64,000 bases of DNA from assembly GCF_001949145.1 (NCBI RefSeq), contig NW_019091358.1, positions 93,984 through 157,983 of the forward strand. Direction: 5' to 3'. The stretch comes from Acanthaster planci (Eukaryota). A program made the translations under genes and the position numbers. The notes beneath the pieces are model-generated. The model saw only the letters and a program-made list of their open reading frames with translations. It did no database searches and was not told the DNA's origin. Below, piece after piece: positions 17,876-64,000 of the stretch (position 1 is its first letter; each line of letters opens with the position of its first letter).

Positions 17876-18099
17876 GTACATCTGTTTTGCAGTCATATTT
17901 CAACCAATCTTGTAAAAATATTTTGAAGTTTTGTTAGTATTTTCTTGTTTAATTTAGTAACCATATTTGTATAACTTGGATGTCTCTTTCCTGTTATTAC
18001 AAGAAAAAAATTCAAATTCATACCAAGCAGCGGGCTATGGCAGCTTTGCCGTTCTAGTTCAGCTTAGTGTGGTTGTTGTACCCTGGTTTCAGAAGGATA

Positions 18100-20012: not shown

Positions 20013-20203
20013 CAACTTGGTCTTGATGGGGCAATACCTCTGTCTAACAGCCTGAGCTTGTGTGATAAACCAAGGATAGAATCAGCCATCAACAAGGCAG
20101 TGAAAGGGCCATGCCTAGACCCATGCCCATTTAGATTTGGCCAGTTGGTGGTGTGTAAGGTCTACTTGGGAAGGAGTCTTCCTGCCTTGGATGTGAAAAT
20201 GAA
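20013..20203 (+). CDS. LRRC9: LRRC9 internal exon (phase 0 to 2)
   Basis: ccttgtag|...AA|gtaagt; encodes QLGLDGAIPLSNSLSLCDKPRIE...FRFGQLVVCKVYLGRS (LRRC9 SNSLS..PRIE and KVxLG motifs). Confidence 0.88.
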
Positions 20204-27169: not shown

Positions 27170-29461
27170 AATCATTCACACTGTGAATTTTAGAAATAAA
27201 ATAACGACTTTGTAAAGAAACGTAGCCAAAAAAAAGGAAAGAAAAAAGAGAGTAGTTGCGTTACACGATTTCTTGAAATAGAGAAAACGTAAGAAAAAGA
27301 CATAAAATGGAGAGTGGTTGCATTACACGATATCTTGGAATACACATTATTGTACATGAAGTAATTGATTCAAGTATAATAAACCTTGAAGGAGTTGCAC
27401 TAAAATTTCATGTACTATTTCATTTACAATGTCTTGGAATACAGGAAATTTCATCTTGCATGGATCTTGCATGCATCTTGGACAGCATACAGGCATTTTT
27501 TTTGTCTTGCCAGACCAAGGCGAGCGAGCCTTGGTCACAGGAGTGGTGAACAACATCTTGAGTTTCAAGGAGCACAAGCCCTTGGGCATATCGAATTTTC
27601 TCACCGTCACGACGACGTTCGTCTTCTGGTCGTGTAGTTTCAAGTACAGTTCGGGGCTGCTGAACCAGTTGTCCAAGAAAATGGTGTACCCTTTGCCAAG
27701 AAGATTGGCATTCAAGTCAAGTACGATTTTCGTACTTGCCAGGCCAACAGTTTGGTCTTGACTGGTGTAAATCTTGAAGTTCCAGGTGTATCCAGGGGCA
27801 ACACCCATGCTCTGGCAGACTCTATACACCTTGATGCCAAACCTTGCATGCTTCTTGGGGTTGTACTGCTTGAACTTCATTCTCCCTTTGAATTTCCCAA
27901 GGAACTTGTCGGTAGTAATGTTGCTAGATGCAATGTAGATGGACTTGAACTCCTCGGTCAGTTCGTCTATCACCAGGTGGAGCTTGAAGAGTTGATCTGT
28001 TGTATCTGCATGGCTGTTATCGATGAAATGCAGATGGGACAGCAAGTCCATAAATCAGTCGCGGGGCATGGTATTAGGGAAAAACAAGAGTCTCAAGTAT
28101 TGAGTCTCTCATCCAGTAGGACTTCATGTCGGGTTTCGGCATCAGTCCCAGGACGATGATCATGGACAGGAACACTGACATCTTGTCTGGTGTTGTGTCG
28201 AACTAGCTTTTCATGTGACTTGGACTTGCTGCTTGACTTTTCGGGTGTTCAGCGGCATAGCGGTTGGTCTCGTTGACTATGTGCAACGTCAACTCTGGGG
28301 TGAAGAACTGCTCGAAGATTTCAACAGGAGTGCTGTTCTTGTCCATTTCTTGCACCTGAACAACCACTATGCCTTGAAAGCCGTGTCGGCGGGGGAAGTT
28401 GTCATCAGCCGTCCATTGAATGGACGAAGTCTTGACCTTCTTCTTGGCAGGCCTCATAGTGAATTCTGGAACAGCTTTCTACACTCCTGCCCTGATAATC
28501 CCACCATTGTCCAGATCTGCAGCTTTTATAATTAAATTCAATGGAAAGGGCAGGGCACTCTATTGAGTAAAGCAGTGTAAAAAGCTTCAATGCTTGCAGC
28601 ATGCCTCTCACTCCTTCGCTGTGCAGCAAAGCTTCAAGAAGCTACTGGTCCACTGAATCCAACTAGCAGTCATTTTATTTTGTTCTACTTGTGTCTGGAT
28701 GTGGGGGTAGGATCCGGCTTGGCAGTGTTTGCTCGTTACGGCAAATATCCCCGCGAAAGGCCACAGTTTCTTAGTATTTATTTTTGTAAATATCTACAAC
28801 AATTTTGCCGGGTCAAGAAATGGCCGGAGAAGACAGAGACTCAAGCTTTTCATTAAGGGGTACTTATTTCTTTTATGTACAACCAAACCTCTAAATACTT
28901 GCTGTTCGACTTTTCAGGTGTTCAACCGCATAGCGGTTGGTCTCGTTGGCAATGAGCAACATCAGCTCTGGGGTGAAGAACTACTCAAAGATTTCGACAG
29001 GAGTGCCGTTCTACTCCAGTTCTTGCACTTGAACACCCGCTGTGCCGGCAGGGGAAGTTGTCATCAAGCGTCCGTTGAGTGGACGAAGAAGTCTTGACCT
29101 TCTTGGCAGGCCTCGCTAATGGTGGTTGCCTGTTAGAATTGCTGTCACTGGTTTAAATTTCTGAACAGATTTCAATGGCATGCACAACATGTCAATGACC
29201 TGTATTCATCGCGCTGCGGGCCCACACAAAGTGCGTTGGATAAGCCCTGACAGCCGAGTCGAGCGACACTCCGCGGAGATTTCACAGGGTATTCAATCAA
29301 AGACAATACGGTGTTCTGATGAAAAAAATCCAATTTACTGGGTATCGTGGGGTCGACCAACTCTCCTAGTTGCTCTAGATTTCCATTCAATGCAAAGCTC
29401 CCAGTAATTACAAATGAACACTCTCCAGGCGCGGTGTTTGCAGTCATCCGGTGCGAAGGGG
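27170..29461 (-). mobile_element. piggyBac transposon copy 2 (degenerate, rearranged 5' part)
   Basis: ORF 27347-28051 (FKGRMKFKQYNPKK, FLDNWFSS). Terminus ccggtgcgaagggg|ttaa at 29448-29465. 5' coding piece duplicated at 28896-29166 around unrelated sequence. 3' region repeated at ~54690-55020. Confidence 0.88.
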
Positions 29462-30508: not shown

Positions 30509-31160
30509 GCAAGTACACCAAGATTGTACAATCCATTGCTGATATTTAACCACTTGTTGCAAGATGATGTGGAAACATATGCACTTTTCCTCAGTGGTTC
30601 CAGAGAGGACATGCACACTCATTTAAGAGTTCTTTTTGCGTAGCTTTGGTTGATGTATTTATGAGTCATGCTTCGTTGGGTCAGAGTGCAGAAGATGTTC
30701 CAGCACACGGATTACTGCTGCTAAGTGGACCCCCCCCCACAATAATCCAGAGTTTATGGTGCCCTACCTACCCAAACAGTCACTACATGTGCTTAAACGT
30801 AACACACATGTCCCTCTAGGCATCTTCGATTTTTTGAGTTACCCTTTTCTCTGCATGGTTCTGTGTTGATCTGATTATCCATCCTTCCTTCTTGAATATT
30901 GCTAATCACTTCATGCCAGGTGGGATTTGATATGTGGGATGAATTTCTGGGCAATTTTCAAGATTTTCCATTTTCAAATTCTTCCAAAATTTATACAGTC
31001 GACTCTCATGAATATGAGGGCCTTTGGACTTACTTTACATTGGCTAGTATTATCCAGACCTCATCTGATGCGAAAGCTGCCCTCCTGCTCGACGTATGTA
31101 TCACCAATCAACCGTGGGTAGAGCGTACATGTTTACAAGTATCCATAACCTTTTGTTTAA

Positions 31161-31549
31161 CCCCTTGACGACGGGAATTTCTTCCCGAAAGCCAACTCCA
31201 AGAATCCCAGCCTCGCTTGGCCATGAACGCCACCTGCCAAACCGCAAATTCTGGTTTGTGGCCCTGCGTGTTCTGCACGCTTTGAATTACACGGTGAAAA
31301 GGCTGATTGTTTGGTGGCATGCAGCTCTACTCACCTTTCCATATTCCCATTCCCTGTTTTCAAAGTGGGGACTATTGTGAAGCTGGTGATTATGATGCAA
31401 ATTCTGTCTTTTCATTTCTGGACTAGCACAAAGACCAATTACCATATATACAAGAGCCAGGGTCTGCCTTCTTTCAGCATGTTTGCTCGAGCGTGGGCCG
31501 AGAATAATAGCTGAAAAGGCGTGTCTAGCCGCCTCCCGATGCGTAAGGG
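31161..31549 (+). mobile_element. piggyBac-type MITE (~390 bp)
   Basis: ttaa|ccccttgacg...gcgtaaggg|taaa; inverted copy of 51791-52197. Confidence 0.75.
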
Positions 31550-32699: not shown

Positions 32700-33640
32700 T
32701 TCCGGTAAAAGAATGATTACCTACGGCAGATAAATGAACGCCATCATAGGCGTACAGATGAAACTGTTCTATGGGAAAATTGTGGGTGTGAAAGAGTAGT
32801 GATGCCAAACCTACAACCTATCGAGCAGCACCATCGGTTGATGGAGCATCTTTTCTGGTCGGCTCGTGAGGGGAAAAGAGTGCTAAAATAGCATGCCCAC
32901 GGGCCGTGCGTGTGGAAACTGCAGGACGCATTCCTGCATAAAAACACTCACTTGTACCCGGAATACGAACGAATCTACTTTTAGCAAGTCATTGGTACCT
33001 ACGTGCACTATGGTTAGTCAAGGGGACAGTTCCCGGGTCTCCATAGCCGACCTTAACCTGGGAATGTCAGCAAGCCCTGCTCCTCCAATTCCATGCCAGT
33101 GGACAGGTGCTCAACAACCCAAAGACTGACTGGCTCGATGAACGATTTAATCCCCTACGATCCACACAGTGCCTAAACCGGAAGTAAAAATAAAGGTGGA
33201 AAGTCATGGCCAGTGCTCTATCGCTGTTCCATATGCGGCATGTGACAATCGACAGTCGGATGTCTTCAAGCCGTACCCCACCTTCTGCCGCTGCCATTGC
33301 TTTCCCGATGCGGAACAAGCGCGCCCGGTTATAGGGGCCCATGCAGTCAATAAAAGAAAGTACCTTTTGCAGCATAGCATTGAATTAATATTGGGTCAGC
33401 GGTGATCATCAAAGTGACAGAACAGGGGGCCGTGCTTGCTGGGTCTATGCGCCAGGAATTTTTGCAAGGCGAGAACTGGACAAAGTGATCTATCGGTGGC
33501 CAGTATAAGGCACACAGATTGGGCTGGTCCAAGCTTATTATTTTTGGCACTTCTAAATGAATAAATTACAGACAATGCACACGAATTACTGTCGTCAATG
33601 TGGATGTCAGATCTCATAAGTAGTCTTGACATCTCATCGT
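32700..33640 (-). mobile_element. Ngaro-like YR retrotransposon fragment (tyrosine recombinase then SGNH-hydrolase remnant)
   Basis: RSAKN...LCPVLAL..FL..RP...GPLFCH and FRIG.AMAAAEGG...I...W.S, followed by WHGIGG and HLYAYDGVHLSAVGN. Confidence 0.65.
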
Positions 33641-33699
33641 CTTGACATTTTTGTACCAGACATTACTAAACATACTGGGACTCCTGACGACATACCATG

Positions 33700-34475
33700 G
33701 TGCCTAGTGCGAACTCTTATTATGGTACATAGCTAAAACCAGAAAACTCAGTGGTACAACTTCACAGCTTTTCATCACTAATAAAACCTCACCAAGCTGC
33801 GACCAGAGACACTATAGCCAGATGGGCAGTTTCAGCTATCAAGTTTGCCAATTCAGATTGGCTGNNNNNNNNNNNNNNNNNNNNNNNNNNNNNNNNNNNN
33901 NNNNNNNNNNNNNNNNNNNNNNNNNNNNNNNNNNNNNNNNNNNNNNNNNNNNNNNNNNNNNNNNNNNNNNNNNNNNNNNNNNNNNNNNNNNNNNNNNNNN
34001 NNNNNNNNNNNNNNNNNNNNNNNNNNNNNNNNNNNNNNNNNNNNNNNNNNNNNNNNNNNNNNNNNNNNNNNNNNNNNNNNNNNNNNNNNNNNNNNNNNNN
34101 NNNNNNNNNNNNNNNNNNNNNNNNNNNNNNNNNNNNNNNNNNNNNNNNNNNNNNNNNNNNNNNNNNNNNNNNNNNNNNNNNNNNNNNNNNNNNNNNNNNN
34201 NNNNNNNNNNNNNNNNNNNNNNNNNNNNNNNNNNNNNNNNNNNNNNNNNNNNNNNNNNNNNNNNNNNNNNNNNNNNNNNNNNNNNNNNNNNNNNNNNNNN
34301 NNNNNNNNNNNNNNNNNNNNNNNNNNNNNNNNNNNNNNNNNNNNNNNNNNNNNNNNNNNNNNNNNNNNNNNNNNNNNNNNNNNNNNNGCATGCTGGAAGA
34401 CCCCATCTAATTTCACCACATGCTACCTCACCGATGTTCTACAAAAGGACTCTGCACATGGCAGAGCAGTCCTAA
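33700..34475 (+). mobile_element. DIRS tyrosine-recombinase fragment spanning N-gap 33865-34387
   Basis: KPHQAATRDTIARWAVSAIKFA before the gap and ACWKTPSNFTTCYLTDVLQ after it; paralogous to 43677-44246. Confidence 0.7.
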
Positions 34476-34545
34476 CATCGGCTACATCGATGCCGAAGGG
34501 TTCCTCATCAAAGCGGCCCTCCGCTGGAACGACATAACTCCATTA

Positions 34546-34805
34546 GGGATGGGATCAGAAACACAGAGACCGTTCGCACGTGTTTGCACACATTCCCTTC
34601 CATTCTGCATGCCCTCCCATTCACCCCCGTTCCGAAGGGCACTTCGGAATGAGTTCCTGATCATTCTCTTGCATGAGTGATTCAGAGAGTATTGTTATGT
34701 TAATTGGCCATCCCTGTGTGTGCGAGAACAGCAGCATCACAACAAAGATGTAAAGAACATGCATACCAGCTGTTCTTGAGTCTGTTGGCTAAATGAGTGT
34801 CGACA
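34546..34805 (+). repeat. Dispersed non-coding repeat (MITE-like end); second copy inverted at 59760-60020
   Basis: gggatgggatcag..gagaccgttcgcacg...gcatgagtga.tc.gagagtatt.ttatgttaattg...cacaacaaagatg is shared between the two sites. Confidence 0.75.
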
Positions 34806-42709: not shown

Positions 42710-43056
42710 ATCGGCAGAAAAAATAACTAAACAAGTATTTTGGACGGCGAGCACATCGATACAACGATCTAAAAGAAAGAACGCATGGACAGTGAAAGGT
42801 TGAAGTACACGATCGCACACTGGCGATTGTGTTCTGCCGATAACGTCATAGGGTCACATGGTATGCTATCGCAATTTTCGGATTGAAAAGTGGGGTGCCA
42901 TTTTTTGTCGGGAATCTGGCTGTTTTCTCAAAAATGCCATTACTTTATTCAAAAAACAAACTGCCACATGGAAGATCATACTTTCTCTGATCAATTAGAC
43001 ATCAGATTCCTTTCTATATCTGATAACCTTTAAGTAATGTCTCCCTGGTATATTAA

Positions 43057-43645
43057 CCACTTGCTGCCAGGTGCTTTGAAAAATGCAGTGCACACGTATG
43101 GATGATTTTCAAGATTTTCAGTTTTCCAAATTCTTCAAAAATTCATCATTTTATTTAATGAACGTTTACACCCACATGAATGACTGTCTGGCGGCCACTC
43201 TAGTGTGACGGACAAAATTTATTGATGCCTGAGTATTTCAACCAGGCCTGCAGCCTTGTAAAAAGAACCCATAGTGTGCGGTGTTATATAATTTTCTTTT
43301 GTTCTCGAAACCGGCACAGTGCACTGGTGGCATCTTTTCAATACGGGGCCACATGAGCATGCAGCGATATTGCATCACTCATCACTGGAGTGCTGGAGAG
43401 CTTTCGTCCCCGGTGGTAATCTGCTTGCACTGAATGCCACAAATAGTGGTATAATGTTTCAAAACAAGGACGGATTTCCTCCGATCTTGACAACTGAAAA
43501 AATGTTGGTAATCCCCAGCAACTCAGTCTTTTGTGCCGAGCACGGTCTTTTGTTACAAGGCCAAGCTCATTTGTCCGGTTTCAGGCTCCCCGGCTTTGTG
43601 TATGAAGCCCATTTGCTCTAAAACGGGTCTCCCGGTAGCAACAGG
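43057..43645 (+). mobile_element. CCAC-terminus MITE family, copy b
   Basis: ttaa|ccacttgctgccaggtg; colinear with copy a. Confidence 0.7.
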
Positions 43646-43676
43646 ATAAAGCATTAAACTGGCCTTCCTCCTGGCC

Positions 43677-44246
43677 GTGACTACTTCCAGAAGGGGATGT
43701 GAGTCCTCGCCATTGGTGAGGGACATCTACGATGGGAGCCATACGGTGTCATGGGAGCCACATGGTATCTGCTTCATTCCCTCTGTTGACTTCCTCACTA
43801 AAAATCACACTGCTTTTTTGGATCCGCTTGACATTTTTGTACAAACAATTGCTTCACATGCAGGAGATGGTGAGGACAAACACTGGTGCCCAATTCATGT
43901 GCTAAAGTGGTATCTCGCCAAGACCAAGAATCTGATAGGTAGAGTTTCCAAACTATTTATTACCTCCACCAAACCACATCACCCAGCAGCAAAAGACACC
44001 GTAGCACACTTGATAGTCTCGGCCATTAAATTTATCAACCCAAACTGGCCATCACACCCTGATGACCCTTGCAAACACTATATCAGAGCACATGATGTTA
44101 GAGCAGTATCTACGTCTTGGTCTTACTTTTCTGGGATTTCCACTGCAGACATCTGTAAAGCTGCATGCTGTAAGTTGCCCTCTACATTCACCTCCTGCTA
44201 CCTAATGGATGTCATGCAGAGCATGAAGGACACAGAAGGAGTTTGA
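43677..44246 (+). pseudogene. DIRS tyrosine recombinase C-terminal fragment
   Basis: WCPIHVLKWYL...LFI...AKDTVA.LI..AI...RAHDVRAVSTSW...IC.AA...TFT.CY (HxxR and catalytic Y region). Confidence 0.8.
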
Positions 44247-47501: not shown

Positions 47502-48061
47502 CCACTGTGCTCTACCAGGTACCTTGGGTTTATACGCAGAGCCCGAAATCAGGTAAAAGAGCTAGGTCTTGCAACAAAAGTTCGTACTCGGAACAAAAGA
47601 CCAGGCTGCTGAGAATTGCCAATATTTTTTCAGATGTCAATAGTAGAGGAAATCCATCATTGTTTTGAAAGACAATACCACTGTTTGTTGCTTCAAATTC
47701 AGTGCGAGTGGATTACCGCTGGGGACAGCAGCACTCCAGTGATAAGTGATACAATACTGCTGCACGCTAATCTGGGTCGTATTGAAGAGACTCCAGCAGT
47801 GCACTGTGCCAGTTTCGGGAACGAAAGAAAATTATGTAACACCACACAATCTGGGCTCTTTTTACTAGGCAGCAGGCCTGGCTGAAATACTCAGGTGTCA
47901 ATAGTTGTTGTCTGTCAGGTTAGAGTAGCCACCATTTGTGTTGGTGTAAATGTCTAGGAAATGAAGTTAAACATTTTTTTAGAATTTGGAAAACAGAAAA
48001 AAATGAAAAATCACCCAGCCCAGCAGAATCAACATGGATAAATGGGCCCAGCACGAAGTGG
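47502..48061 (-). mobile_element. CCAC-terminus MITE family, copy c (diverged)
   Basis: ccactgtgct...agcacgaagtgg|ttaa; interior is the reverse complement of copies a/b. Confidence 0.65.
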
Positions 48062-48596
48062 TTAAAATAATGTAGACGATTCTGAATAAAAACTGTTATC
48101 TGTTTTGTCCTATTCATCACTAGGAGAAACCACCTTCTCCATTTATTGATGTGAGTAATGCCAAAGCAGAGGAACAGAAGCTGAATGATCAGAGTATTGA
48201 CACTGATGTATTGAATTTGGACCCAGTAATTCAACTAAAGCCACGGTAAGATTAGCAATTAAACTAGAAATAGTCTGAGCTCTGTGGGTGTATGTCAGGT
48301 CTTTTCTCACTGGAGTTGTGGCTGTGGCAATTTGAGAAATCCTTTTTAATTTTATGGATTTCATTTCCAATTGATCCCAGTTTTGGCTCCTGACTGAGGG
48401 GAAAAAATGTTACACTGTCAACCCAACTCTATCTCTATATTCTGACCAAAAAATTGGCAGTCAGATTGGTGTGGGGTTCGTTTTCCTCCTTCCACCTCTA
48501 CCACCTACAGTTCAAATCCTGTCCAAATCCACCACCTCCCCAAAATGTGTGCAGATTTGTTTCAAGTGCATAAGTAGTGTGTTTGAAATAGGTCAG

Positions 48597-49002
48597 TGTT
48601 TTAAAACAGTATACCATGGTTTGGGGGCCTTTAGAGCGAGTGGATTACCAGCGGGGACAAAAGGGCTCTACCACCACAGCGATGAGCCACACAGCACCGC
48701 TGCTGGCTAATCTGGCCCCTGTTGAAAAGAGGTCAGCAGTGCACTGCGCCAGGTTCGTGAACAAAAGAAAATTACATAACACCGCACAATTAGGGCTCTT
48801 TTTACAAGGCTGCAGACCTGCTGAAATACTCGGACGTCAATAGATTTTGTCAGTCAGATTAGAGTAGCCATCAGACGGTCATTCGTGTGGGTGTAAATGT
48901 CCATGAATTGAAATGAATTTTTGAAGAATTTGGAAAACTGAACATTTTGAAAATATCCCGTGTGTTTGCACTGCATTTTTCAAACCACCTGGCAGCAAGT
49001 GG
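48597..49002 (-). mobile_element. CCAC-terminus MITE family, copy d (truncated)
   Basis: Ends cacctggcagcaagtgg, the reverse complement of the start of copy b. Confidence 0.7.
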
Positions 49003-50894
49003 TAAAACGTTTTGTGCAAATTAAGTTCCATTTTGGAAGGCACAGTAAGACCTATGCAGATCAAATATGTCACAAATGAATCAGCATTTATGTGCTTATT
49101 CAAGATGCTTGGAAAATGAATCAGTTGATAAAACAATGGATTATTTTTCCCCTCCCCTCCAGTGGAAGTCTGTGCCCTCCTTTGATGGCTGCCCCTCCCT
49201 CATTTGAATTATCGCATTGTACATAACCCGCATAAAAGCCACAATTGATTGGTTTTAAGTGCGTTCTTGAAAAACTATGTTCACCCAGAAGTGCCCCCTC
49301 AGAAATATCAGCGTAGTCACACTGCAGGATGATGCAGGTCTTGATAATCAAACTTTAGCTGTTTCACTAGTACACCTCAGAACAACAAAGCCTTCATGTA
49401 ATTGAGAGCTATACAGGGTGTACATGTACATTTGTTTGTTGTGTGTGACTTATTTTAATTTATTATGATTTTATTCTGCTTCACATGTTTTGAAATATGA
49501 TGCCTTGTAGAGACCCAGAAGAATGGGTTGAACAGGTCTTCAGAAGGAATTTCTAAAGGTGTATAGGTATACACATGGATTTCATGATACTGATATTTGG
49601 AAGTTGTTCAAAAAGGAGAAGGTTTTAATGCATAAGAATGTGTTTCAAATAAGGGACGTTCTGTCAAAATTTCAGTCCAGGAGAGTGATTCATGTTGAAA
49701 TTGGAGCATCTTGAAAACATCGTTTGACACGCGGCCGAATTAGTACTGTGGGTTGCGAAGAATGCAGTGAGCCAGTGTTGCCAGTGTTACTCTCATAATG
49801 CAGTCTCAGTCAATGGTCGTACTTGCCAAAGAAGTGAAAACTGTGAATGTTCAACCACTACTTGCACTATAGGGACTGCGCTTCACTTTTTTATGGTTCC
49901 TTATCATGTCAAAAGAATCATTACTGAGTACCACAAGCAAGGGGTCTATTCAAGGCAAAAGGGACTATTAAAGTTTATGGGAGTCAAAAATTTGACGTGA
50001 CTCCAGAAGAGTGACATGCTCTCCACCAAGAAGAAGAGCTGAACTGTCTCACACTCAGGTACAGGCGTAATTGTGAAATAGTGTTTTCATTGGGCTGCAA
50101 CGACAGTTTACTTTAGGATTTAATGATTTCAATATTCTTAATGTTACTTCATGCCCTCATACCATTTTGTGTGTGTAACAGTATTTAACAATAGGCCCTT
50201 CTCAAGAGAGTTGGACAACAGCAGTGTTACAGATCCATTAGGATGGGAAATAAGTTAAGGAAAGAAATAAAGCACAGAGAAGAAAGAGTCCACTGTAAAC
50301 CACTTGTTTAATTTAGGGCCGTTAAATACATACACAGAACGTGATATTTGCTGCCCCCAGACACACACCCATTAGCAGTACTCAAAATTATTACTGCAGC
50401 AGGTTTGCCCACTATCCCACTAAGCCTGAGGTAAGGTTGCCTTCCATTTAAAAATACTATCAAAGGCTTAATAGACAACAGTCATATTTTGTCTTTGTCA
50501 ATCACTGTTTATGTGTTATAATTAAATGTGTGTGCTTTATACGAATATGTACACTTAGATTAGGTATTGGGCAGTATACCTACATCCTGCCTGTATGCAA
50601 GAAGTACAGTCCCCTAACTACTATTGCTTGGTAGAATAACAGTGAAAAATTAATGCCAAATCTGATCCAAATGTAACATGAGTAACTGCAGAATTACATT
50701 AAAGTCCTGTGCTACGAGATAAATCAGTTATTGCAGGATCTAATCCTAGCACTTTAGGGTATTTGATAATTTTCTATTAAAATTGAAGAATTTAGGACTG
50801 TCAGGTTAAAAAAACATAATAAGTTCATTCCAAACATGTGAAGTTGTGTGGTGATTTCAATCATAATATTTGTATATTTTTTTCTCTTGATCAG

Positions 50895-51081
50895 GTTGGT
50901 TTCTTTAACTGAAGATATCTTGCTGCAAATAAGTGGTGCAAGATCCCTTACCTCAATCACAGTTCTTAATCTTCATGGCAATGGATTAACCAAGCTGAAG
51001 TACGTATCATTGCTGACATCCCTGCAGAAGTTGATTGTCAGTTTTAACGAGTTGTCCAAGCTGGAAGACTTGGCACACATG
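50895..51081 (+). CDS. LRRC9: LRRC9 internal exon, leucine-rich repeats (phase 2 to 0)
   Basis: gatcag|...ATG|gtaag; encodes LVSLTEDILLQISG...ITVLNLHGNGLTKLKYVSLLTSLQKLIVSFNELSKLEDLAHM (LxxLxLxxN repeats). Confidence 0.9.
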
Positions 51082-51790: not shown

Positions 51791-52197
51791 CCCCTTCTCA
51801 CCGGGAAGCAGTAAGAGGCGCGTAAAAATTGAGGTCACTCAGTCTGCTTTTCAGCTATTATTCTCGGCCCACGCTCAAGCGAACACTGTGAAAGAAGGCA
51901 TACCCTGGCTCTTGTATATATGATAATTGGTCTTTGTGCGTAGCCCAGAAATGAAAAGACAGATTTTGCATCATAATCACCAGCTTCACAATAGTCCCCA
52001 CTTTGTAAAGAGGCAACGGGAATGTGGAAGCGTGAGTAGATCCACATGCCACCGAACAATGAGCCTTTTCACTGTGTAAATCAAAGCATGTAGAGCACGC
52101 AGGGCCACAAACCGAGAATTTGCGGTTTGGCAGGTGGCCTTCGTGGCCAAGCGAGGCTGGAATTCGGCTTCCAGAAAAAAGTCACGACGTCAAGGGG
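51791..52197 (-). mobile_element. piggyBac-type MITE with both TTAA sites
   Basis: ttaa|ccccttctcaccgg...gacgtcaagggg|ttaa. Confidence 0.8.
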
Positions 52198-52724
52198 TTA
52201 AGAAATGAAATTTTGAAAATGTGGTCAATAGACTTGGGTGGCTCCAGAATTCTCAGAGCCAGTTCTGGCTCCAACAAAGAATCACAATTCTGAGTTAGAA
52301 CTAGCTCCCAAAGATATAAAGAAAAAATCATAAGGTTTAATAAAACACATCAAAAATCTGTTGCTACACTATGCCAGTGCCACACACTTATGGCACAACA
52401 GACTTCCTCTTGGTCTTTTGTGGGTTTTAAGATTATCCACAGTCAGTATTCTGAATTTATGTTGGCTTCTTCATAGACCAGTTGTTGTGGTTGGAACAAA
52501 TCTGCAACATCTGTGTACAACTCAGCACTGCTTCCTCTCTTTATTTTCCATTCAGTGTACATGTACATGTATATTCATTTAATAATCCAGTCAGAACAAG
52601 TGATTGCCATTGCTTTAGTACATGTAACTTTACCTGTGTACAAATGGGATCGTCATCCATTCCGGGGCACTTAGTGTATGGAGTGGATCCCGTGTACTTT
52701 TGAACATGTGCCAATGTATCTTAA

Positions 52725-56885: not shown

Positions 56886-56945
56886 CCACAATTGGAGCTG
56901 ATTGATGCAAGTTTCAACAAGCTTTACACGTTGGATGGATTCAGA
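56886..56945 (+). CDS. LRRC9: LRRC9 internal 60-nt exon (phase 0 to 0)
   Basis: ctttgtag|...AGA|gtaaat; encodes PQLELIDASFNKLYTLDGFR, the next LRR. Confidence 0.85.
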
Positions 56946-58049
56946 GTAAATATTTTTTTTATTGAGTTTGCACGTGCAAGTATATAGATACATAGATCTC
57001 TGCATATTTTAGCATGGTTGCGTTATTTCTGGTAAACTGTTACCGTTGTTATACCTGTCAGTCATTGCTTGGGTACAGTAAGGATGGGAGTCACCCATAA
57101 GGAAGAAATGTTTGAAGGTAGTGTGGCAGCATTTCCGAAAATTTTAAAAGATATACATTTCCACAGGAGTACCACCAACACGTGGATGACTGTACAGAGT
57201 GAATGTTTATGAGTGCAGTGGTTCGCCTCTGATAATAAAACATTGAATCTGTCACTTCATGAATTTATTTCTATTGAACAAACTATGAGTCGCCTGTTAT
57301 TTATTTTTTATACTGTAGCTGCCTAAATCCCTGCCGCCCAATGGATAGGTCGTTGATCCGATGTGATTGAATTATGTTTAGAAGTTTATTTCACTTGCAT
57401 GGTTCCAGCCTTCATTTCATATTTTCTATTCATAGTAAGAAAGAGTAAAATAATATAGGAACAGGAACCAGTCTAACATTACATAAAACTACTAGTGGGT
57501 GGTGCTTCGGACATGAATCTGTTGCACAAAACCGTGGACGTAATATGAAAAGACTGTTAATTTTTTTCTCCAAACGGCAGTGGATTTATGGAGGTGTTGT
57601 ATAAAATAAAGTAGAGAATGTTCATAAGTGAAATGAATGAAAAGTGGAATAATTTCCTAAGGTGACAGATGAAATATTCTTTTCCACGAGGCCAATATTT
57701 GTTTAATACCACATCTGAATGTGAACTTGTACAAGTTGGAGGTTTACTTTGCCTGTCCAAAGTCAGAGTAAAAAGTCAACATAAATTTTCTCAATTTGAC
57801 TGCATGCTTAAACAGATGGCCCTTTGTGTCTTACAATTTAATAATTTGACAACCTAGTTAGTTCCTTTCTATTAGAAGCATAACCTTAATACTCAACTCA
57901 AAAACCATAACAATGGTGCATTTCTTGGACAGCTTGTCTTACCACTGCTGGATTGTTGCACATGACATTGATTTTGTTTAGAATTCAAGTTCGTAACTCA
58001 GCAACATCATGTGCAGGATTTGAACAACAATCTGTGTAAAATAAGGTGG

Positions 58050-58260
58050 CCTAGTTGGCCATTCCATTGCATGATTGAGGGCTATCTCTCTGTCTTCAAA
58101 GAATTCCCTTAATCTCTGTGAAATTAGTGTTGATGAAGCAGGTAGAAATGTGGAAGGTGTTACTAAATGAGAAGGTAAGTCATCATCCTCTTGTGTCAAT
58201 ATTTTTTTCCATAGAATGTTTATCCAGTGTTAGGATGAATAGAAATTGATCGAGTTGGCA
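58050..58260 (-). pseudogene. Tc1/mariner-like transposase remnant
   Basis: LREFFEDREIALNHAMEWPTRPPYFT resembles the WPPRSPDLTP motif. Confidence 0.45.
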
Positions 58261-58625
58261 TCTGCCCAATTGGGAAAGAGGATGTTTCTACCTATCAATT
58301 TGAAAAACAATGGTACTTGCTTGACGCAAATGTTTGTTCCACTCATATACCAAATTATTGACTGACCCAAAGCAAAGGTACAACACCCAGTAGTAGGGAC
58401 CGGTATTTACTAGAGCAGCCCCTCTTTTTCACTTCCTGGATCAGCGCGGGACTTAACCGACTTTCCAGATCAGCGCGGGACTTCCCCAAAAAAATTGTGA
58501 CCCGACTTCCCAAACCGGCAATTGCGGAGCCCCCCAGGACTTTCCACCGACGGAAAATAGCTCAACTCTGGACGATCCAGGAAAACAAAACAAAAACAAT
58601 TTCTCAACGATTTTATAAAAATCAA

Positions 58626-58871
58626 ATGACTCTAGCTTTAGTCACCAAAATCGAATACGCTAAATTAGTCGCCGCTCACGCCACGTGGTTAGTCGTCAAC
58701 GGCTACGAATCACAATGAGATTTAATCGCACAGGCAAAGTTAGACAGGCAAAACCAAAGGCACCGCATTTGTTTAATGAGAAAGACTAAGACTGGCAAAG
58801 AAGTTTACAAGCCGAATGAAATATTTATTTCCGACGATTTATGCGCCGCTAAAAAAATGAAAAATGAATAG
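58626..58871 (+). pseudogene. RNA polymerase subunit Rpb6/RpoK-like protein (one in-frame TGA at 58716-18)
   Basis: MTLALVTKIEYAKLVAAHATWL...*DLIAQAKLD.......ICLMRKTKTGKEVYKPNEIFI aligns by eye with Rpb6 TKYERARVLGTRALQI...DPLQIAMKEL...IIIRR....G..E.W...ELII. Confidence 0.5.
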
Positions 58872-58882
58872 AGACTATATAA

Positions 58883-59116
58883 ATGGAAATGATAAACCAT
58901 AAAACAAACGTGAATTGTTATTTTTGCAAAGACAAGAGAAATTCAGTTGACTTGATGAGATGTAATAACTCCACTTGCGGCGAGTGCGGCAGGTGTATAA
59001 ATTGCGTATATTGTTTAAATTCATACGACTGCCAAAATTCAAGCGCCTTGGACAGTTGCGAAGATTGTTACGATTTGATCTCACGCTGTGAGAAAAAATA
59101 TTTTATGAATGTGTGA
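58883..59116 (+). CDS. Small cysteine-repeat protein (77 aa), function unknown
   Basis: Intact ORF after TATATAAATG with CxxC periodicity (CGECGRCINCVYCLNSYDC...CEDCYDL). Confidence 0.6.
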   Translation: MEMINHKTNVNCYFCKDKRNSVDLMRCNNSTCGECGRCINCVYCLNSYDCQNSSALDSCEDCYDLISRCEKKYFMNV

Positions 59117-59759
59117 TGCCCATTCCGAGTGACAACGTATTTGACGCGTTGCACAGTAATTACGATCATAGAAAATTCACTGGCCATTCATTTTTGTTCA
59201 GACCAAGAGAATGATAAAATAGCAAGGGAATAAAATCAGGAGAGTATTCCAAATAAAGTCTCTGGGGAGCTTTCATCCAACCAAAGATTGACAGCTGACC
59301 CGACCGTCTAGTACAACAGTTGTTCCGGTAGACTTGGTTGCGTCTTCTGATTGACAGCCCGCCTTGGCATTTCTTTTCCTAACACCCTACCCGCCAAATA
59401 TAGTAATACTTCCTTCCTTGACATTTTCTATCCTAACCTAGATCACGTGTGGTTTTTATTAATTTCCACTAACACAACCGCCCAGTTATTTTATTCAGAG
59501 CACCCAACCCACCAAAAATATAAATATTTTTATCCCCCTTGGCATTTCTTTAAGGTTTTAATTTTTTTCTGCACCATGGTCTCTTTTTTATTCCGAGCAC
59601 CCAACCCGCCAATAATATTAATTCTTCCTTCCTATCCTCTGCATTTTCTATCCACACCTTGATCACTTGTGGTTTTTGTTAAGAATGTATAAAATGTGGG
59701 AAGTCGGTACATCAACGGAACAGAATGAGCATTTATAAGAGGGAAGAAAAAACATCTTA

Positions 59760-60020
59760 TCGGACCAAACACTGTTGACACTTATTGAGCCAAGGCTCAA
59801 GAACAGCTTGTATGCACGTTCTTCGCATCTTTGTTGTGACCCTGCCATTCTCGCACGCGCAAGAACGGTCAATTAACATAATAATACTCTCCGAGTCACT
59901 CATGCAAGCGAAGGGGCAGGAACGGGTTCCGAGGTGCTCTTCGGAATGGGGGTGAACGGGAGGGCGTGCAGAACGGAAGGGAACGCGTGCGAACGGTCTC
60001 TATATTTTTGATCCCGTCCC
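59760..60020 (-). repeat. Host dispersed repeat inserted into the pPolB gene
   Basis: Reverse complement of 34546-34805; begins exactly where pPolB homology stops (DKNTEF). Confidence 0.75.
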
Positions 60021-60604
60021 AAACTCGGTATTTTTATCGATATAACTCTTCATCCAAGGCGCTTGTTTAAATGACATCATGTGATGCACCTGTTTTAACT
60101 GGAGACCAAGTTCTAAATATTTCTGCAACGTTCGATAATGAACCACATATTTATTCTTGGTGTTTAAAGTCGACACGAGTTTATCTACCGAGGTACTTCA
60201 CTCACCGTGGGGTGTTAAGTCTTTTTGGTATTCTGACAGCCATTCATTTGGAATCGATATATTTTCCGGTACCAGTGGGAAGTTGTTAATAAGAGGACGT
60301 CCGTCTCGACATATAAATCGTGGTAATCTCCGAGATGACAGCAGTTGAACGTTTTCCATATGTTTTGAGCTCGATAATATTCTTACTCAGTAACAGATGC
60401 CTGCCTCAACGACCTGTAAAAAGTGGCTTGAGGAGGCAGTTGTGATTCTTCAAATTTATCAAAGGAGTTTATGTGTTCGTACGGGTAAATCCCCTTTTCT
60501 AAAAGTAAATCTGCATTATTTGGGAATCTTTCGTGGAGTAGATTAAAATCGTCGGGTGAACAATTCTTAACCAGCCGATCGAGAGATGCAGCCATGAAAT
60601 GAAA
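60021..60604 (-). pseudogene. Protein-primed DNA polymerase B remnant (KGxYPYE type), truncated at both ends and internally deleted
   Basis: FHFMAASLDRLV...KGIYPYEHINSFDKFEESQLPP..FY.SL....*EYYRAQNIWKTF...LGDYHDLYVETDVLLL is joined directly to NFPLVPE...KYVVHYRTLQKYLELG...FKQAPWMKSYIDKNT. Confidence 0.92.
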
Positions 60605-60679
60605 TGTAATTCTTGGTGTTTTTAGTGATGACTTTAATTTTACTCCTGTGCTCCCTGCATAATTAGATACGCGTCGTAT

Positions 60680-60910
60680 TTGCACCTGCTGCGTAAATTG
60701 TGTCGAGTTGGAAGGAATGATCACGTGGTGCTCGTAGACGGTAAGCATAAACAGCTGAGGCACGCGCGAGAAAACGAGCCACTGCCTGATTTAGCGACAA
60801 AACTCGACACGGATTTATACAAAAGTGGATTAATTATTGAATACGACGTTGACATTGAACATTTAATTAAAGTAGAAATCCCACCGAAGTTAATAGACGC
60901 GGCCGAATAA
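60680..60910 (+). pseudogene. 3' part of an unknown viral ORF
   Basis: Open frame ends TAA just before the next gene; 5' end lost near the pPolB breakpoint; no motif recognised. Confidence 0.35.
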
Positions 60911-60925
60911 AAATGAGAAGAATTT

Positions 60926-61670
60926 ATGACAAAGCCGGGAAAATCAGAACCATGTCAAGTATATATCGTTTCAGACGACCACAAGCATCTCAATGCCAAC
61001 AACTGGGACCCCAATGTTACCTACGGTCCCTTTGACCCGAGTAAATAAATTATTTCAAAACCTGTGATTAAAGAAGGCACCCACTTGAGTCAATGCAGCT
61101 CACCCATTTTTTACCATCACAACGGCCAAAATAAACGCCTGTTGATTATGACGAGAGAACCCTGCTACGGTATAAACCTGCTTTACAAATACAGCACTCG
61201 AGATAAAACCCCCGAAAACATCAAAGGCCGTCAAATTTGCTATCAAATACAACAACCTACGACAAACATACTCGATCACATAAATTTGGCCGTTTATAAA
61301 TTTGTTGAATCTCAAGAGTCGAATCTCCCGTCTAACACTGTAAACAAATGTATGTTAAAACAGATCCCTATGCCTCTCTATTTGATCACCAAAAAGACTC
61401 ATTGACTCGTCAAATATGGATAAATTTATCAATAAGAGATGCGACGCACAATCATTTATTTGTCCAAAAGACGTATACTACGGTACCCACTGTTCACTGT
61501 CGTGCGGCGCCAGCGTTCGGTATAGAGTGACAGCGGCAATGTTGAAAATTAGAAACGACGGACTAATTTCAAATAAGTCGGTGTTGCAAGCGTTTAGCGG
61601 ATATGGATTTGAATCTGGATCTGAATCTGGATCTGGATCTGAAACTCCCGTGAAATTAAAAGTTGATTAA
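60926..61670 (+). pseudogene. DUF2738-like (NCLDV-type) ssDNA-binding protein, one stop and two frameshifts
   Basis: FDPSK*IISKP...PIFY...RLLIMT..PCYGIN...TPENIKGRQICY, then SLFDHQKD...IWINL, then DVYYGTH....GASVRYRV and a Ser/Gly/Glu tail. Confidence 0.5.
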
Positions 61671-61706
61671 ATTTGAATACTTAACTTATGATGAAAAAAT
61701 CAATTG

Positions 61707-61738
61707 AACCTCGGTTATTCCGAGGAATAACCGAGGTT
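61707..61738. terminator. Perfect intergenic hairpin followed by a T-run
   Basis: aacctcggttattcc-ga-ggaataaccgaggtt (15-bp arms), with an A-run upstream and a T-run downstream. Confidence 0.55.
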
Positions 61739-61776
61739 AATTTTTTTGCCTTAAATAAATGGACTATTAATAAAAA

Positions 61777-62322
61777 ATGACAGACGCAGAGATTTATCAT
61801 TTAACCGGCTCATTACCTAAATGGCCAACCCCACCATCACGACCAAAAAACATGTGTGATCATTATGTAGTAGAAATAAACGACAGATATGCGTGTAAAC
61901 ATTGTGGTATAATTTTGGGGTGGGTTTCCTCTTACACCCCTGTAGACATGGGAGATAGATATTACAAGCATCACGTTTGGAAAAAAACGCCACCCCCAAA
62001 ATCGAGAAAAACTTTAAAAAAGTTTAACGTTCAATTGGAGAATGGTGAAGCGGGTGAAATAAAATATAAGTTAAATCGAGTTCTAAACGGCAAGATCTCT
62101 AGAGGTAAACTGTTGAAGGCTTTAATTGCGGTATGTTATCAAGACGTGACAAAAGAACCTACAGAAGCCGTAAAAGATCTATTTCAAGTTTCGGATAAGC
62201 ACTGGGAAAACGCCTTTGACAAATTAAACCTCGCCAAACAAGATTTCCAAAAANNNNNNNNNNNNNNNNNNNNNNNNNNNNNNNNNNNNNNNNNNNNNNN
62301 NNNNNNNCGTATAGATTGCTAA
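61777..62322 (+). CDS. TFIIB-like protein (Zn ribbon plus one cyclin-fold repeat); 3' end in gap
   Basis: CDH...YACKHCGIILG zinc ribbon and RVLNGKISRGKLLKALIAVCY, matching the TFIIB RG....A..AC helix. Confidence 0.65.
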   Translation: MTDAEIYHLTGSLPKWPTPPSRPKNMCDHYVVEINDRYACKHCGIILGWVSSYTPVDMGDRYYKHHVWKKTPPPKSRKTLKKFNVQLENGEAGEIKYKLNRVLNGKISRGKLLKALIAVCYQDVTKEPTEAVKDLFQVSDKHWENAFDKLNLAKQDFQKXXXXXXXXXXXXXXXXXXRIDC

Positions 62323-62377
62323 ACAAGATTTTTCAAAATGTATAGATTGACCAAACAAGATTTTTCAAAACGTATAT
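62234..62377 (+). repeat. 31-32 bp tandem repeat around gap 62254-62307
   Basis: Units cgtatagattgctaaacaagatttttcaaaa (62308-38) and tgtatagattgaccaaacaagatttttcaaaa (62339-70), with a partial unit before the gap. Confidence 0.75.
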
Positions 62378-62383
62378 AATAAA

Positions 62384-63536
62384 ATGGAGACTCACACGTT
62401 TTACTTAACCGAGAGCGAGCAGACGTTTAAATTGAAAGATGTCCTTAAAAACACCAAAGGCGACAAAGTCGTCCGAGTAAAGAATATTCAGTTTGAAGCT
62501 GGATATTTTAACGTAACAAAAGCGGCTGAAATTGAGTGGGATACAAACTTGGACGCTAGGCCCGCGGGGGTCCGTGGCGAACGACCGCCTGGAATACCTT
62601 CAGAGGAAAGAACGGAAGTATCTCCCAATTCAGAATTAGTACAAACAGCTAAAACCAGATTGATCCCAGCAAATAAAAAAGGCACTTTAGCAGAAGAAAT
62701 CAGCATCATCGCTGAGGAAATTGAGCAGCTAAACCAAGAAATCGCAACTTTGGAAGAGCAGTTAAACCAAAAACAACCATTAGAAACGCGAGCTCGTTTA
62801 GCTTATGATATCAACGATAAAAAAGTCAAATCAGCTTCACTGCTCGAGGGGCAAAGACAAGCCTTGGATGAAATTTATGAAGGGAATCCCCCAGCTCAAC
62901 ATACAATAAACTCCCCCGTACAACCCACGAGACCCAGAAGAGAATTAATTAAAAGACTTTTTTTGACGGGGCTAACAGAACTTATATACGATAGACTTCA
63001 TTCTTGAAGCTCATCTCAACCATTACCCGAGAGTAGGAAGCATCGTGGTATCCCCCGGTTATTATAACATGGACTGGTTTCACTTTTTGTTAAACTCGAT
63101 TCCAGGCGTTTCTTTTAAGGTTCACTCAGAATCTAAAAGGGTGACTTTGGCCATTACGGACCCCAATCTCAAGTTGCAACTAAATAAAGAAGTGTCTAAG
63201 CCATTGAACCTACCCAAAATAAAACTTTTACCCAACGTCATTTATGAAGGCAAGTACCATTTAAACCCCTTGAAACTCACGTTTATTCATTGCAAACAAT
63301 TAAATACATTTGACAACTTTTACAACGGGCAGTCTTCAGACTTGCTATACGTGATTGCTACCAAGCCTTGCACCTCAACACTCGTGACGTGTAAAACGTC
63401 TAAAAAGTTAATACACAGAAACATCAGTGAATTGACTTTTTCTGTTAAAAACGATCGAGGTGAGCTCTTGAATAATATCGGCAAAATATTAATCAAGTTA
63501 GACATTTTAAAAAACGTGTATATAATAAAAAGATGA
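62384..63536 (+). pseudogene. Minor capsid protein (penton)-like, frameshifted near 62960-63000, with an internal coiled-coil insertion
   Basis: N-terminal beta-strand region to GYFNVT; C-terminal VSPGYYN...FIHCKQL...FYNGQSSDLL...ISELTFSVKNDRGELL....I.IKLDI fits the Polinton penton pattern. Confidence 0.7.
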
Positions 63537-64000
63537 CGACTAACGTATACCCAGATTTAAGTAAACACCCCGATTTGACTTTAAACTCGGCCAAACAAGC
63601 GGAGACTAAAATTTATTGCCTTCGAAAGATCGAAGAAATTAAATCTCGTATCCAAAGAGAACGCGACGTGCGGAAAACTACCTACAAAAAGATTAAACAG
63701 GTTACGTAGAGTATGGTGTAGATGCACTGGGCGCGACCTCAGCAGCCGTCGCAATTCCCGCCAATTGGGGCATCGTTACCGGACCCGTCGGACTTGTGAT
63801 GGAAGGCATCGCTATCGGTGTGTTGGATGTTTACGCTTCGCTAAAATATGCCAGTCGCCAATTAACTCACAAAACTTAAAAGCACGACTGAATTCGAATA
63901 TTTGCGGACGCTAAATTAAACACGATCGAGGAATACGTATCTCACCCGATTGAAGATGGTGATATATCCTAGGAGGAATTTGTACTCATTTTATCCGAGA
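63533..64000 (+). pseudogene. Conserved Polinton membrane-helix protein (partial, disrupted)
   Basis: VYPDL...YCLRKIEEI...ERDVR...YKK, hydrophobic GVDALGATSAAVA...GPVGLVMEGIAIGVL, then KHD*IRIFADAKLNTI...DGDIS*EEFVLILSE. Confidence 0.7.

What the first reader, a model, noticed from the sequence alone, without database searches (positions are those of the whole stretch)
58389..64000. Polinton/Maverick-like endogenous virus carrying a giant-virus-type transcription/replication gene set
Seen: an AGTAGTAG terminus, a pPolB remnant, a penton-like gene and a Polinton-type membrane protein. Interleaved with them are intronless ORFs resembling Rpb6, a DUF2738-type SSB and TFIIB. Known: canonical Polintons encode pPolB, integrase, ATPase, protease and two capsid proteins and rely on host transcription; Rpb6, TFIIB and this SSB family are typical of Nucleocytoviricota. 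Inference: a Polinton lineage that acquired NCLDV genes to retool host Pol II or to exploit a co-infecting large DNA virus in a virophage-like way. It lies downstream of the last LRRC9 exon seen, so it is presumably intronic.
Basis: partly seen in the sequence, partly recalled or inferred. Interest (0 to 1): 0.88.

Follow-up and report, generated by a model that had tools for sequence, protein, structure and literature searches.

The report
Maverick carrying a half-size TFIIB
This is the decayed end of a many-copy virus-like transposon (Polinton/Maverick) whose family carries a half-size relative of the transcription-start protein TFIIB, closest to giant-virus versions among those compared, which likely steers the host's RNA polymerase II to the element's genes; the two other proposed giant-virus genes (Rpb6, SSB) are only weakly supported.

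Summary
The element is real. AGTAGTAG at 58389 is the edge of a repeated unit. Downstream lie a Polinton-type PolB remnant (45-69% identity), a minor-capsid-like gene and a gasderminX-like gene, found in many diverged copies in four DNA runs. This copy is dead: stops, frameshifts, PolB motifs A and B missing. Its PolB piece sits in a segment that splits a Cys-rich gene and that some other copies skip. Of the three 'giant-virus' genes only TFIIB holds up. Its family profile hits compact giant-virus TFIIBs (33 and 30 bits; human TFIIB 14.5), and Foldseek's best named hits are viral TFIIBs. It keeps the zinc ribbon and one cyclin repeat but has no second repeat, and contigs of other copies link it to the capsid gene. 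Rpb6 and the DUF2738 SSB fail Pfam, HMM and HH-align tests and pass only a post-hoc whole-length score. They are real multi-copy ORFs with unproven labels. Far TIR, TSD, integrase and major capsid lie outside the window. Best reading: a Maverick lineage with a virus-derived mini-TFIIB that recruits host Pol II; the virophage idea is untested.

The parts
58383..58388 (+). Candidate left target-site duplication (ACACCC); the right copy is outside the window
   Evidence: Sequence; 6-bp TSDs are typical (PMC8097293); not verifiable here
58389..58435 (+). Element end with (AGT)2 motif; first ~45 bp shared with other copies
   Evidence: Depth step and foreign-flank reads; only + strand AGTAGTAG in the window, no partner end inside it
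58436..58620 (+). Sub-terminal non-coding DNA, low copy, with five GACTT words
   Evidence: Depth 42-192 in X1; 1 of 506 window tiles has 5 or more GACTT (motif chosen after seeing it)
58626..58871 (+). 81-codon multi-copy ORF with a weak Rpb6 resemblance; stop at codon 31 in this copy
   Evidence: depth 318-921 against flank 9.5 in X1, stop not shared by most copies
58883..59073 (+). 5' part of a Cys-rich ORF, very high copy
   Evidence: other copies join 59070/59072 to 60680
59094..59340 (.). Very high-copy segment of unknown identity at the start of the segment that splits the Cys-rich gene
   Evidence: Depth; no family hit; no hit in 120 Polinton loci
59370..59682 (+). Local 99-bp direct duplication (79% alike)
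59778..60023 (-). Fragment of another repeat, 80% alike to 34543-34800 (DIRS-like by a recalled motif next to that copy); truncates the PolB
60006..60680 (-). Protein-primed PolB remnant, about residues 560-710 and 859-959 of the L205 PolB; motifs A and B absent; frameshifted
   Evidence: a related ORF on L246 has Pfam DNA_pol_B_2 at E 6e-7
60680..60910 (+). 3' part of the Cys-rich gene plus a small C-terminal domain; frameshifted in this copy
   Evidence: A Cys-rich reading resumes at 60681; joints
60917..61592 (+). Broken ORF with a weak, collinear resemblance to DUF2738-type SSB; stop near 61046 and frameshifts downstream
61777..62322 (+). Mini-TFIIB: zinc ribbon, short linker, one cyclin repeat; open frame of 159 codons up to the N gap (62254-62307), stop by 62322
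62372..62384 (+). GTATATAATAAAA word just before the minor-capsid-like ATG; repeated at 63518-63530 before the gasderminX-like ATG; candidate shared promoter
   Evidence: 2 occurrences in the window, both here; function inferred
62384..63536 (+). Minor-capsid (penton)-like gene, here in two overlapping frames; the first carries a coiled-coil-like stretch
   Evidence: 3' ORF 35% to L205, 26% (E 5e-5) to L246; the 5' ORF had no hit in 120 loci
63533..64000 (+). GasderminX-like membrane-protein gene, broken (frameshift, three stops), cut by the window end
   Evidence: E 0.005 and 0.017 to L225 and L273; name from recall and PMC8502044
50895..51081 (+). Host LRR exon; a further candidate exon at 56886-56945 ends in a GT donor (context, not part of the element)
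   Evidence: Pfam LRR_4 E 4.8e-7

Best explanation
The region is the decayed left end of a multi-copy Polinton/Maverick whose family carries, next to its minor-capsid-like gene, a half-size TFIIB (zinc ribbon plus one cyclin repeat) that was likely taken from a large DNA virus and likely recruits host RNA polymerase II to the element's compact promoters. SHOWN: the end motif is the edge of a repeated unit; Polinton-type PolB and minor-capsid homology; TFIIB-family homology; no room for a second cyclin repeat; links between neighbouring genes in other copies; decay of this copy. The Rpb6-like ORF (about 45% to be Rpb6-derived) and the SSB-like ORF (about 50%) are conserved accessory genes of the family; if Rpb6-derived, the ORF is too changed to be assumed a drop-in polymerase subunit.
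For: End of unit; (AGT)2 is the commonest vertebrate Maverick end motif (PMC8097293). PolB and minor capsid; L205 is the best match for both. TFIIB: five short relatives, 109-158 aa; two give sub-threshold Pfam TFIIB ribbon (E 1e-3) and cyclin-repeat (E 2.5e-3) hits; the family profile hits 2 of 17 giant-virus records at the very ORFs Pfam calls TFIIB (33 and 30 bits, ribbon through repeat 1), against 14.5 bits for human TFIIB and at most 6.9 bits for 7 longer viral TFIIBs; Foldseek BFVD ranks 2-6 include four named TFIIBs, E 3e-4 to 3e-3; top PDB rows are TFIIB chains (E 0.07); VIA top rows include Pol III/II and archaeal TFIIB-family chains, Z 6.2-6.8. One repeat only: the frame stops by 62322 and three relatives end 38-49 residues after the same motif. 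Inside the unit: joint 62233-62351 in 4 of 4 runs and X6 record 30 link TFIIB-like to penton-like DNA in diverged copies. RNAP-less DNA viruses that keep TFIIB are known (10.64898/2026.08.29.747986).
Against: No binding or expression data. The window protein alone has no Pfam TFIIB hit and its model is low-confidence (pLDDT 58.8, TM about 0.3); VIA Z under 8 may be a common helical arrangement, and cyclins and Rb rank alongside. No tree with host TFIIB, so the donor is a best-hit inference. No single contig spans end to capsid gene; the end-to-first-ORF link in another copy is one contig per run with a 27-base side. Depth differs widely between parts, so several subfamilies are mixed. 0 of 120 other Polinton loci (418 kb, mostly short) held a TFIIB, Rpb6 or SSB match, and the context of the five short relatives is unknown.
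Confidence: 0.55

Rival explanations
1. One reading: the lineage carries a genuine Rpb6, SSB and TFIIB set from one giant-virus donor and rebuilds or retools host Pol II.
For: Whole-profile, frameshift-aware scores: Rpb6 beats 374 of 374 host tiles and 598 of 600 open-frame Polinton pieces; SSB beats 138 of 138 tiles and 150 of 150 codon shuffles. Mean Smith-Waterman to 117 viral Rpb6 is 31.7 against 22.8+-2.3 (2 of 500 shuffles). Only 2 of 22 listed variant sites in the Rpb6-like ORF fall on codon position 2 (P 0.009). By hand, at three codons where this copy departs from the Rpb6 pattern most other copies read closer to it. One giant-virus bin (G012) holds all three families.
Against: Standard tests fail: Pfam, HMMER about 2-3 bits for Rpb6 and -1.1 for SSB (67, 86), HH-align 0.8% against 0.7% for an unrelated control and 0.2%, local frameshift-aware scores reached by 5-10% of shuffles, no Rpb6 among 50 fold rows of a poor model. 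SSB is matched by 10 of 165 open-frame pieces. True members score 97-156 and 361-388 bits against 9.7 and 3.6. Of 5 invariant Rpb6 columns outside my search motif this copy keeps 1 (by hand). The positive statistic was the fourth tried.
Confidence: 0.25
2. The mini-TFIIB is a decoy: it occupies the Pol II dock or TBP and damps host (for example immune) transcription rather than activating element genes.
Against: A truncated archaeal TFB3 activates (PMC6101594); a shared AT-rich word precedes two structural genes; the element itself needs host Pol II.
Confidence: 0.15
3. Virophage-like use: the factor works with the RNA polymerase of a co-infecting large DNA virus.
For: Closest matches are giant-virus TFIIBs; Polinton-like viruses awakened by giant viruses are reported in algae (abstract starts seen).
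Against: No helper virus is identified; a helper supplies its own TFIIB; RNAP-less viruses that depend on the nucleus also keep TFIIB.
Confidence: 0.1
4. Passenger cargo: a broken piece of a large-virus genome recombined into a Polinton and was amplified with non-autonomous copies without doing anything.
For: This copy is rearranged and decayed; some other copies skip the PolB segment; almost no RNA in two runs on the part laid.
Against: Short TFIIB relatives of the same design exist at 27-57% identity, which points to long selection on the short form; the ORF is open here while most neighbours are broken.
Confidence: 0.15

Closest known systems
Polintons/Mavericks; Beta-type adintoviruses (PMC8097293, PMC8502044; passages read)
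   Same: (AGT)2 end, pPolB, minor-capsid-like and gasderminX-like genes, intronless ORFs, many decayed copies, accessory genes near the ends
   Different: A TFIIB-family gene is not among the core genes named; 'TFIIB' occurs 0 times in the main text of PMC8502044, PMC11071296 and 10.64898/2026.06.19.733378. Integrase, ATPase, protease and major capsid are not in the part seen.
TFIIB of Nucleocytoviricota (compact 275-291-codon frames in bins G005 and G012; iridovirus and marseillevirus entries of BFVD)
   Same: Ribbon, short linker and first cyclin repeat align end to end
   Different: About half the length, no second repeat, carried by an integrating element with no RNA polymerase seen
Cellular TFIIB / archaeal TFB (PDB 7o72_M, 3k1f_M, 1ais_B)
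   Same: Zinc ribbon and cyclin fold
Archaeal TFB3 (PMC6101594; passages read)
   Same: Truncated TFIIB paralogue with a zinc ribbon that acts as an activator with TBP and full TFB
   Different: Analogy only, no homology test; TFB3 is described with a coiled coil, this protein has a predicted cyclin repeat
'Ariadnavirales' (10.64898/2026.08.29.747986; passages read)
   Same: DNA viruses without RNA polymerase that keep a TFIIB homologue and are thought to depend on the nucleus
   Different: Those are nucleocytoviricots of protists, not integrating Polintons
Polintons with a TBP-TFIIB pair noted earlier in this scan (unchecked AI notes)
   Same: RNAP-less Polinton with its own initiation factor
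   Different: No TBP-like ORF was detected in the 5.6 kb seen; no look-alike by sequence; their TFIIB length was not checked

Membership tests
Polinton/Maverick | (AGT)2 or (AG)3 end motif at the edge of a repeated unit | tested here: met
   (one end only)
Polinton/Maverick | Paired TIRs and 6-bp TSD | not testable with these tools
   Window ends inside the element; no genome; no partner end in the window
Polinton/Maverick | Protein-primed PolB | tested here: met
   Remnant, 45-69% identity to Polinton PolBs; catalytic motifs missing; some copies skip the segment
Polinton/Maverick | Minor capsid protein | tested here: met
   E 4e-12 (L205) and 5e-5 (L246, which also has PolB and an A32-like ORF); the capsid label of those ORFs is by recall and position, no Pfam hit
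Polinton/Maverick | Integrase, packaging ATPase, protease, major capsid | not testable with these tools
   Not in the 5.6 kb seen; the rest is outside the window
Beta-type adintovirus | GasderminX accessory gene | tested here: inconclusive
   E 0.005 to unnamed ORFs in 2 of 120 loci; no named reference compared
TFIIB/TFB | N-terminal zinc ribbon | tested here: met
   C-x-H...CxxCG kept in 5 of 6 rows; Pfam Zn_Ribbon_TF E 1e-3 on P0006, below cut-off
TFIIB/TFB | First cyclin repeat | tested here: met
   residues 111-150 at pLDDT 81-88
TFIIB/TFB | Second cyclin repeat | tested here: not met
   Frame ends by 62322; relatives end at the same place. So it is a truncated derivative, not a canonical TFIIB
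TFIIB/TFB | Binds RNA polymerase and TBP-DNA | not testable with these tools
   Needs biochemistry
Rpb6/RpoK (PF01192) | Significant profile match | tested here: inconclusive
   Fails; exceeds controls in 70, 118, 120
Rpb6/RpoK (PF01192) | Invariant core residues | tested here: not met
   1 of 5 invariant columns outside the search motif kept in this decayed copy (by hand)
Rpb6/RpoK (PF01192) | Rpb6 fold | tested here: inconclusive
   Single-sequence model pLDDT 50; best Z 5.2 to unrelated chains
DUF2738 SSB (PF10927) | Significant profile match | tested here: inconclusive
   Fails; collinear whole-profile score beats shuffles but not 10 of 165 coding pieces (118, 120)
DUF2738 SSB (PF10927) | OB fold | not tested

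The most novel reading that the evidence does not exclude
An animal Maverick lineage took a three-gene kit from a large DNA virus (mini-TFIIB, a reshaped Rpb6 and an SSB) and uses it to build a virus-specified initiation complex on host Pol II, including a swapped or decoy polymerase subunit: a Polinton on the road to polymerase-level control of transcription.
Probability: 0.25. Interest if true: 0.85.

Novelty: new variant of a known kind. Interest (0 to 1): 0.6.

Why it matters
How Polintons switch on their genes is open; they are assumed to rely wholly on host factors. A family that keeps a one-repeat TFIIB gives a small, testable protein for asking whether these elements direct host Pol II themselves, and it is a natural experiment on the minimum TFIIB. 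Its best matches in giant viruses point to gene flow between large DNA viruses and integrating Polintons. If the Rpb6 resemblance holds, it would be a polymerase subunit homologue in a Polinton, which I did not find in the searches run.

Tried and rejected
No own genome. Pfam, NCBIfam, PHROGs on window ORFs: nothing meaningful. PDB sequence searches: nothing for the Rpb6-like ORF, the TFIIB-like ORF alone or the penton-like ORF (14, 15, 105). Homologue searches: 1 hit for TFIIB-like, 0 for SSB-like and Rpb6-like. The ESM Atlas gave no result. IMG/VR and metagenome scans with window proteins or the TFIIB alignment found no loci. C2H2 zinc-finger hits P0009 and P0011-P0013 were dropped (4 of 9 rows). 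NF-kB-like sites: 96 matches against 95 expected window-wide; rejected as a claim. Rfam: 0 hits in 57000-64000. No RNA holder listed among runs with a large share; not used as evidence. A tree against host TFIIB was not built because no eukaryotic TFIIB sequence was in hand. No complex prediction was run. Codon-position counts for other ORFs were too few to read and did not show the position-2 deficit (penton 5' ORF 2/5/2). Rejected: that the small ORF at 60710 is a separate gene (it continues the Cys-rich gene); that PolB overlaps it (PolB homology ends near 60680).

Full report
1. What is there. The window is eukaryotic and repeat-rich; no genome is held. From 58389 to the window end lies a run of short intronless ORFs: end motif; an 81-codon ORF (58626); a Cys-rich ORF (58883); about 1.6 kb holding an unknown high-copy piece, a local duplication, a foreign repeat fragment and a minus-strand PolB remnant; the rest of the Cys-rich gene (60680-60910); a broken ORF (60917 to about 61590); an open ORF (61777 to the N gap at 62254); a minor-capsid-like gene in two frames (62384-63536); and a broken membrane-protein gene (63533 on). 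Nothing hit Pfam significantly, so each label was tested separately.

2. The end is real. AGTAGTAG occurs once on the + strand. In two DNA runs the summed contig depth is flat up to 58373 and rises in 58374-58435; four RNA reads carry a different flank before 58391. (AGT)2 is the commonest end motif of vertebrate Mavericks (PMC8097293, passages). Contigs identical to the window cross the junction in 3 of 4 runs, and in the fourth two contigs overlap there, so the insertion is shared among those samples. The far TIR and TSD cannot be seen.

3. It belongs to a large family. 19 runs from 7 studies hold at least half of the sampled words. In one search, 2487-4442 contigs per run lay on the 7 kb, most under 95% alike. 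Depth in X1 is 16-23 on unique flank, mostly 6500-23400 over 58872-59339 and 60510-64000 (1560 in one bin), but 260-1520 over the PolB segment. Depth is no copy number, but the contrast is large. Diverged contigs link neighbours: Rpb6-like to Cys-rich (X1 record 3, X6 record 13), Cys-rich to 60680 skipping the PolB segment (59070/59072 to 60680), 60687-61100, SSB-like to TFIIB-like (61561 to 62131, X6), TFIIB-like to penton-like (62233 to 62351 in 4 of 4 runs; X6 record 30), penton-like to membrane gene (63424 to 63546, X1). No contig spans the chain, the tables are cut, and the link from the end to the first ORF in another copy is thin (one contig per run, 27-base side).

4. Polinton identity. 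A PolB motif scan gave 120 metagenomic loci (selected by that motif, so the first count is partly built in). The window's PolB pieces hit 120, 99 and 48 of them at E<1e-3, at up to 45-69% identity. They match residues about 560-710 and 859-959 of the L205 PolB; motif A (802) and motif B (970) are missing. L205 also holds the best match of the minor-capsid-like ORF (35%, E 4e-12); a weaker match lies on L246, which has PolB (Pfam E 6e-7), an A32-like ORF (E 0.004) and, by my recall of motifs, integrase and major capsid. The membrane gene matches only weakly (E 0.005); gasderminX is a hallmark of Beta-type adintoviruses (PMC8502044, passages). PolB homology ends near 60680, where a Cys-rich reading resumes, so in this copy the PolB-bearing segment splits the Cys-rich gene. 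A fragment 80% alike to 34543-34800 cuts the PolB 3' end.

5. TFIIB: confirmed, but half-size. A profile search of 1.84 billion proteins returned 9 rows, 5 of them short relatives of 109-158 aa, 4 zinc-finger noise. Two relatives give sub-threshold Pfam hits to the TFIIB ribbon and the TFIIB repeat. The six-row profile hits 2 of 17 giant-virus records at E 1.8e-8 and 1.4e-7 (per genome), on the ORFs Pfam calls TFIIB, from the ribbon through the first repeat. The same profile gives human TFIIB 14.5 bits and seven longer viral TFIIBs at most 6.9 bits, against 33 and 30. The model is mediocre (pLDDT 58.8), yet Foldseek's top viral rows are giant-virus TFIIBs or unnamed entries (4 rows at E<=0.001), its top PDB rows are TFIIB chains (none at E<=0.001), and VIA ranks TFIIB-family chains at Z 6.2-6.8 among cyclins and Rb. 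Human TFIIB has ribbon, reader, linker and two cyclin folds (PMC7111264, passages). Here the frame ends by 62322, other copies cross the N gap over a short distance, and three relatives end 38-49 residues after the same motif (their completeness and genomic context are unknown). So the family is ribbon plus one repeat.

6. Rpb6: unproven. Against 117 giant-virus Rpb6 sequences the ORF scores about 2-3 bits in HMMER while shuffles reach 8.6; HH-align gives 0.8%, an unrelated ORF 0.7%; a local frameshift-aware score is reached by 10-11 of 200 shuffles; the single-sequence model is poor and finds no Rpb6. For it: mean pairwise score beaten by 2 of 500 shuffles; whole-profile score beaten by 0-1 of 400 shuffles, 0 of 374 host tiles and 2 of 600 open-frame Polinton pieces; on the strict like-for-like segment it is 4.8 against -6.9+-4.4 for codon shuffles. 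True members score about 100-155. The ORF is multi-copy, its stop is not shared by most copies (16 contigs in X1, 19 in X6 differ there), only 2 of 22 listed variant sites are at codon position 2 (40 of 112 rows shown), and by hand three codons read closer to the Rpb6 pattern in most other copies. It is a conserved gene; the label is about even odds.

7. SSB: unproven. Against 68 DUF2738 proteins HMMER gives -1.1 bits and pairwise scores are reached by 53 of 300 shuffles; HH-align 0.2%. The whole-profile score beats 150 of 150 shuffles and 138 of 138 host tiles but not 10 of 165 open-frame pieces, which carry no break penalties. The best local and global alignments end at collinear places. No fold was run.

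8. How it likely works. The element shows no RNA polymerase. A ribbon-plus-one-repeat TFIIB would keep the part that docks on Pol II (established for cellular TFIIB) and one core repeat. I infer an adaptor that brings host Pol II to short AT-rich promoters; the same 13-mer stands just before the capsid-like and membrane genes and nowhere else in the window. Precedents by analogy: truncated archaeal TFB3 activates with TBP and full TFB (PMC6101594, passages); RNAP-less, nucleus-dependent 'Ariadnavirales' keep TFIIB (10.64898/2026.08.29.747986, passages). Rivals are a decoy, a virophage-like role and passive cargo.

9. Known or new. Searches listed no paper whose title or abstract start describes TFIIB or Rpb6 in a Polinton; 'TFIIB' is absent from three Polinton/adintovirus papers searched (33-35), and its passages in 10.1101/2022.05.25.493380 concern giant viruses (87). 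10.1101/2023.08.22.554363 (passages, 110) gave the core gene list. The library lacks most subscription journals, and I opened no supplements; gene tables there, or Repbase entries, could already list such ORFs. Earlier notes of this scan report Polintons with TBP-TFIIB pairs in other genomes (52, 130; unchecked), none with Rpb6 (88) or a single-repeat TFIIB (117). So own initiation factors may be a recurrent Polinton trait, and this is a distinct variant of it.

10. Host context. An LRR exon lies at 50895-51081 (Pfam E 4.8e-7) and a likely further one at 56886-56945 ending in a donor site; 'LRRC9' is recalled. The next exon was not identified, so 'intronic' is plausible but not shown.

11. Verdict. 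Real element; one of three striking genes confirmed and more unusual than reported; two unproven; mechanism inferred. New variant of a known kind, interest 0.6.

Noticed in passing
window 10271-13927 (+): Decayed Gypsy-like LTR retrotransposon pol pieces (protease, RT, RNase H, integrase motifs by recall).
   Followed up: no
window 15253-16675 and 27347-29328: Two ~90%-alike copies of a piggyBac-like transposase remnant, 12.1 kb apart (family by recall).
   Followed up: no
window 33633-34800 and 43650-44246: Two related tyrosine-recombinase-like (DIRS-type by recall) remnants; the DNA after the first matches the fragment inside the Polinton. No Pfam hit.
   Followed up: partly
window 99-3510: Degenerate satellite-like repeats with ~170-bp and 409-bp spacing.
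   Followed up: no
window 58389-58640: Five GACTT words, one forming a perfect NF-kB-type site at 58477; the densest tile in the window, though such sites are not enriched window-wide.
   Followed up: partly
window 59094-59340: One of the highest-depth pieces of the region, preceded by other sequence in most copies; unidentified.
   Followed up: partly
window 62384-63007: The 5' part of the penton-like gene carries a ~100-residue coiled-coil-like stretch, perhaps an inserted surface domain; no homologue in 120 loci.
   Followed up: no
G012 and G005 (L121, L323, L324): Giant-virus bins with compact TFIIBs; G012 also has DUF2738 and Rpb6, a candidate donor-type lineage of unknown taxonomy.
   Followed up: partly
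window 31157-31518 and 51847-52201; 17325-17767, 43053-43588, 47539-49006: Dispersed non-autonomous repeat copies in both orientations.
   Followed up: no
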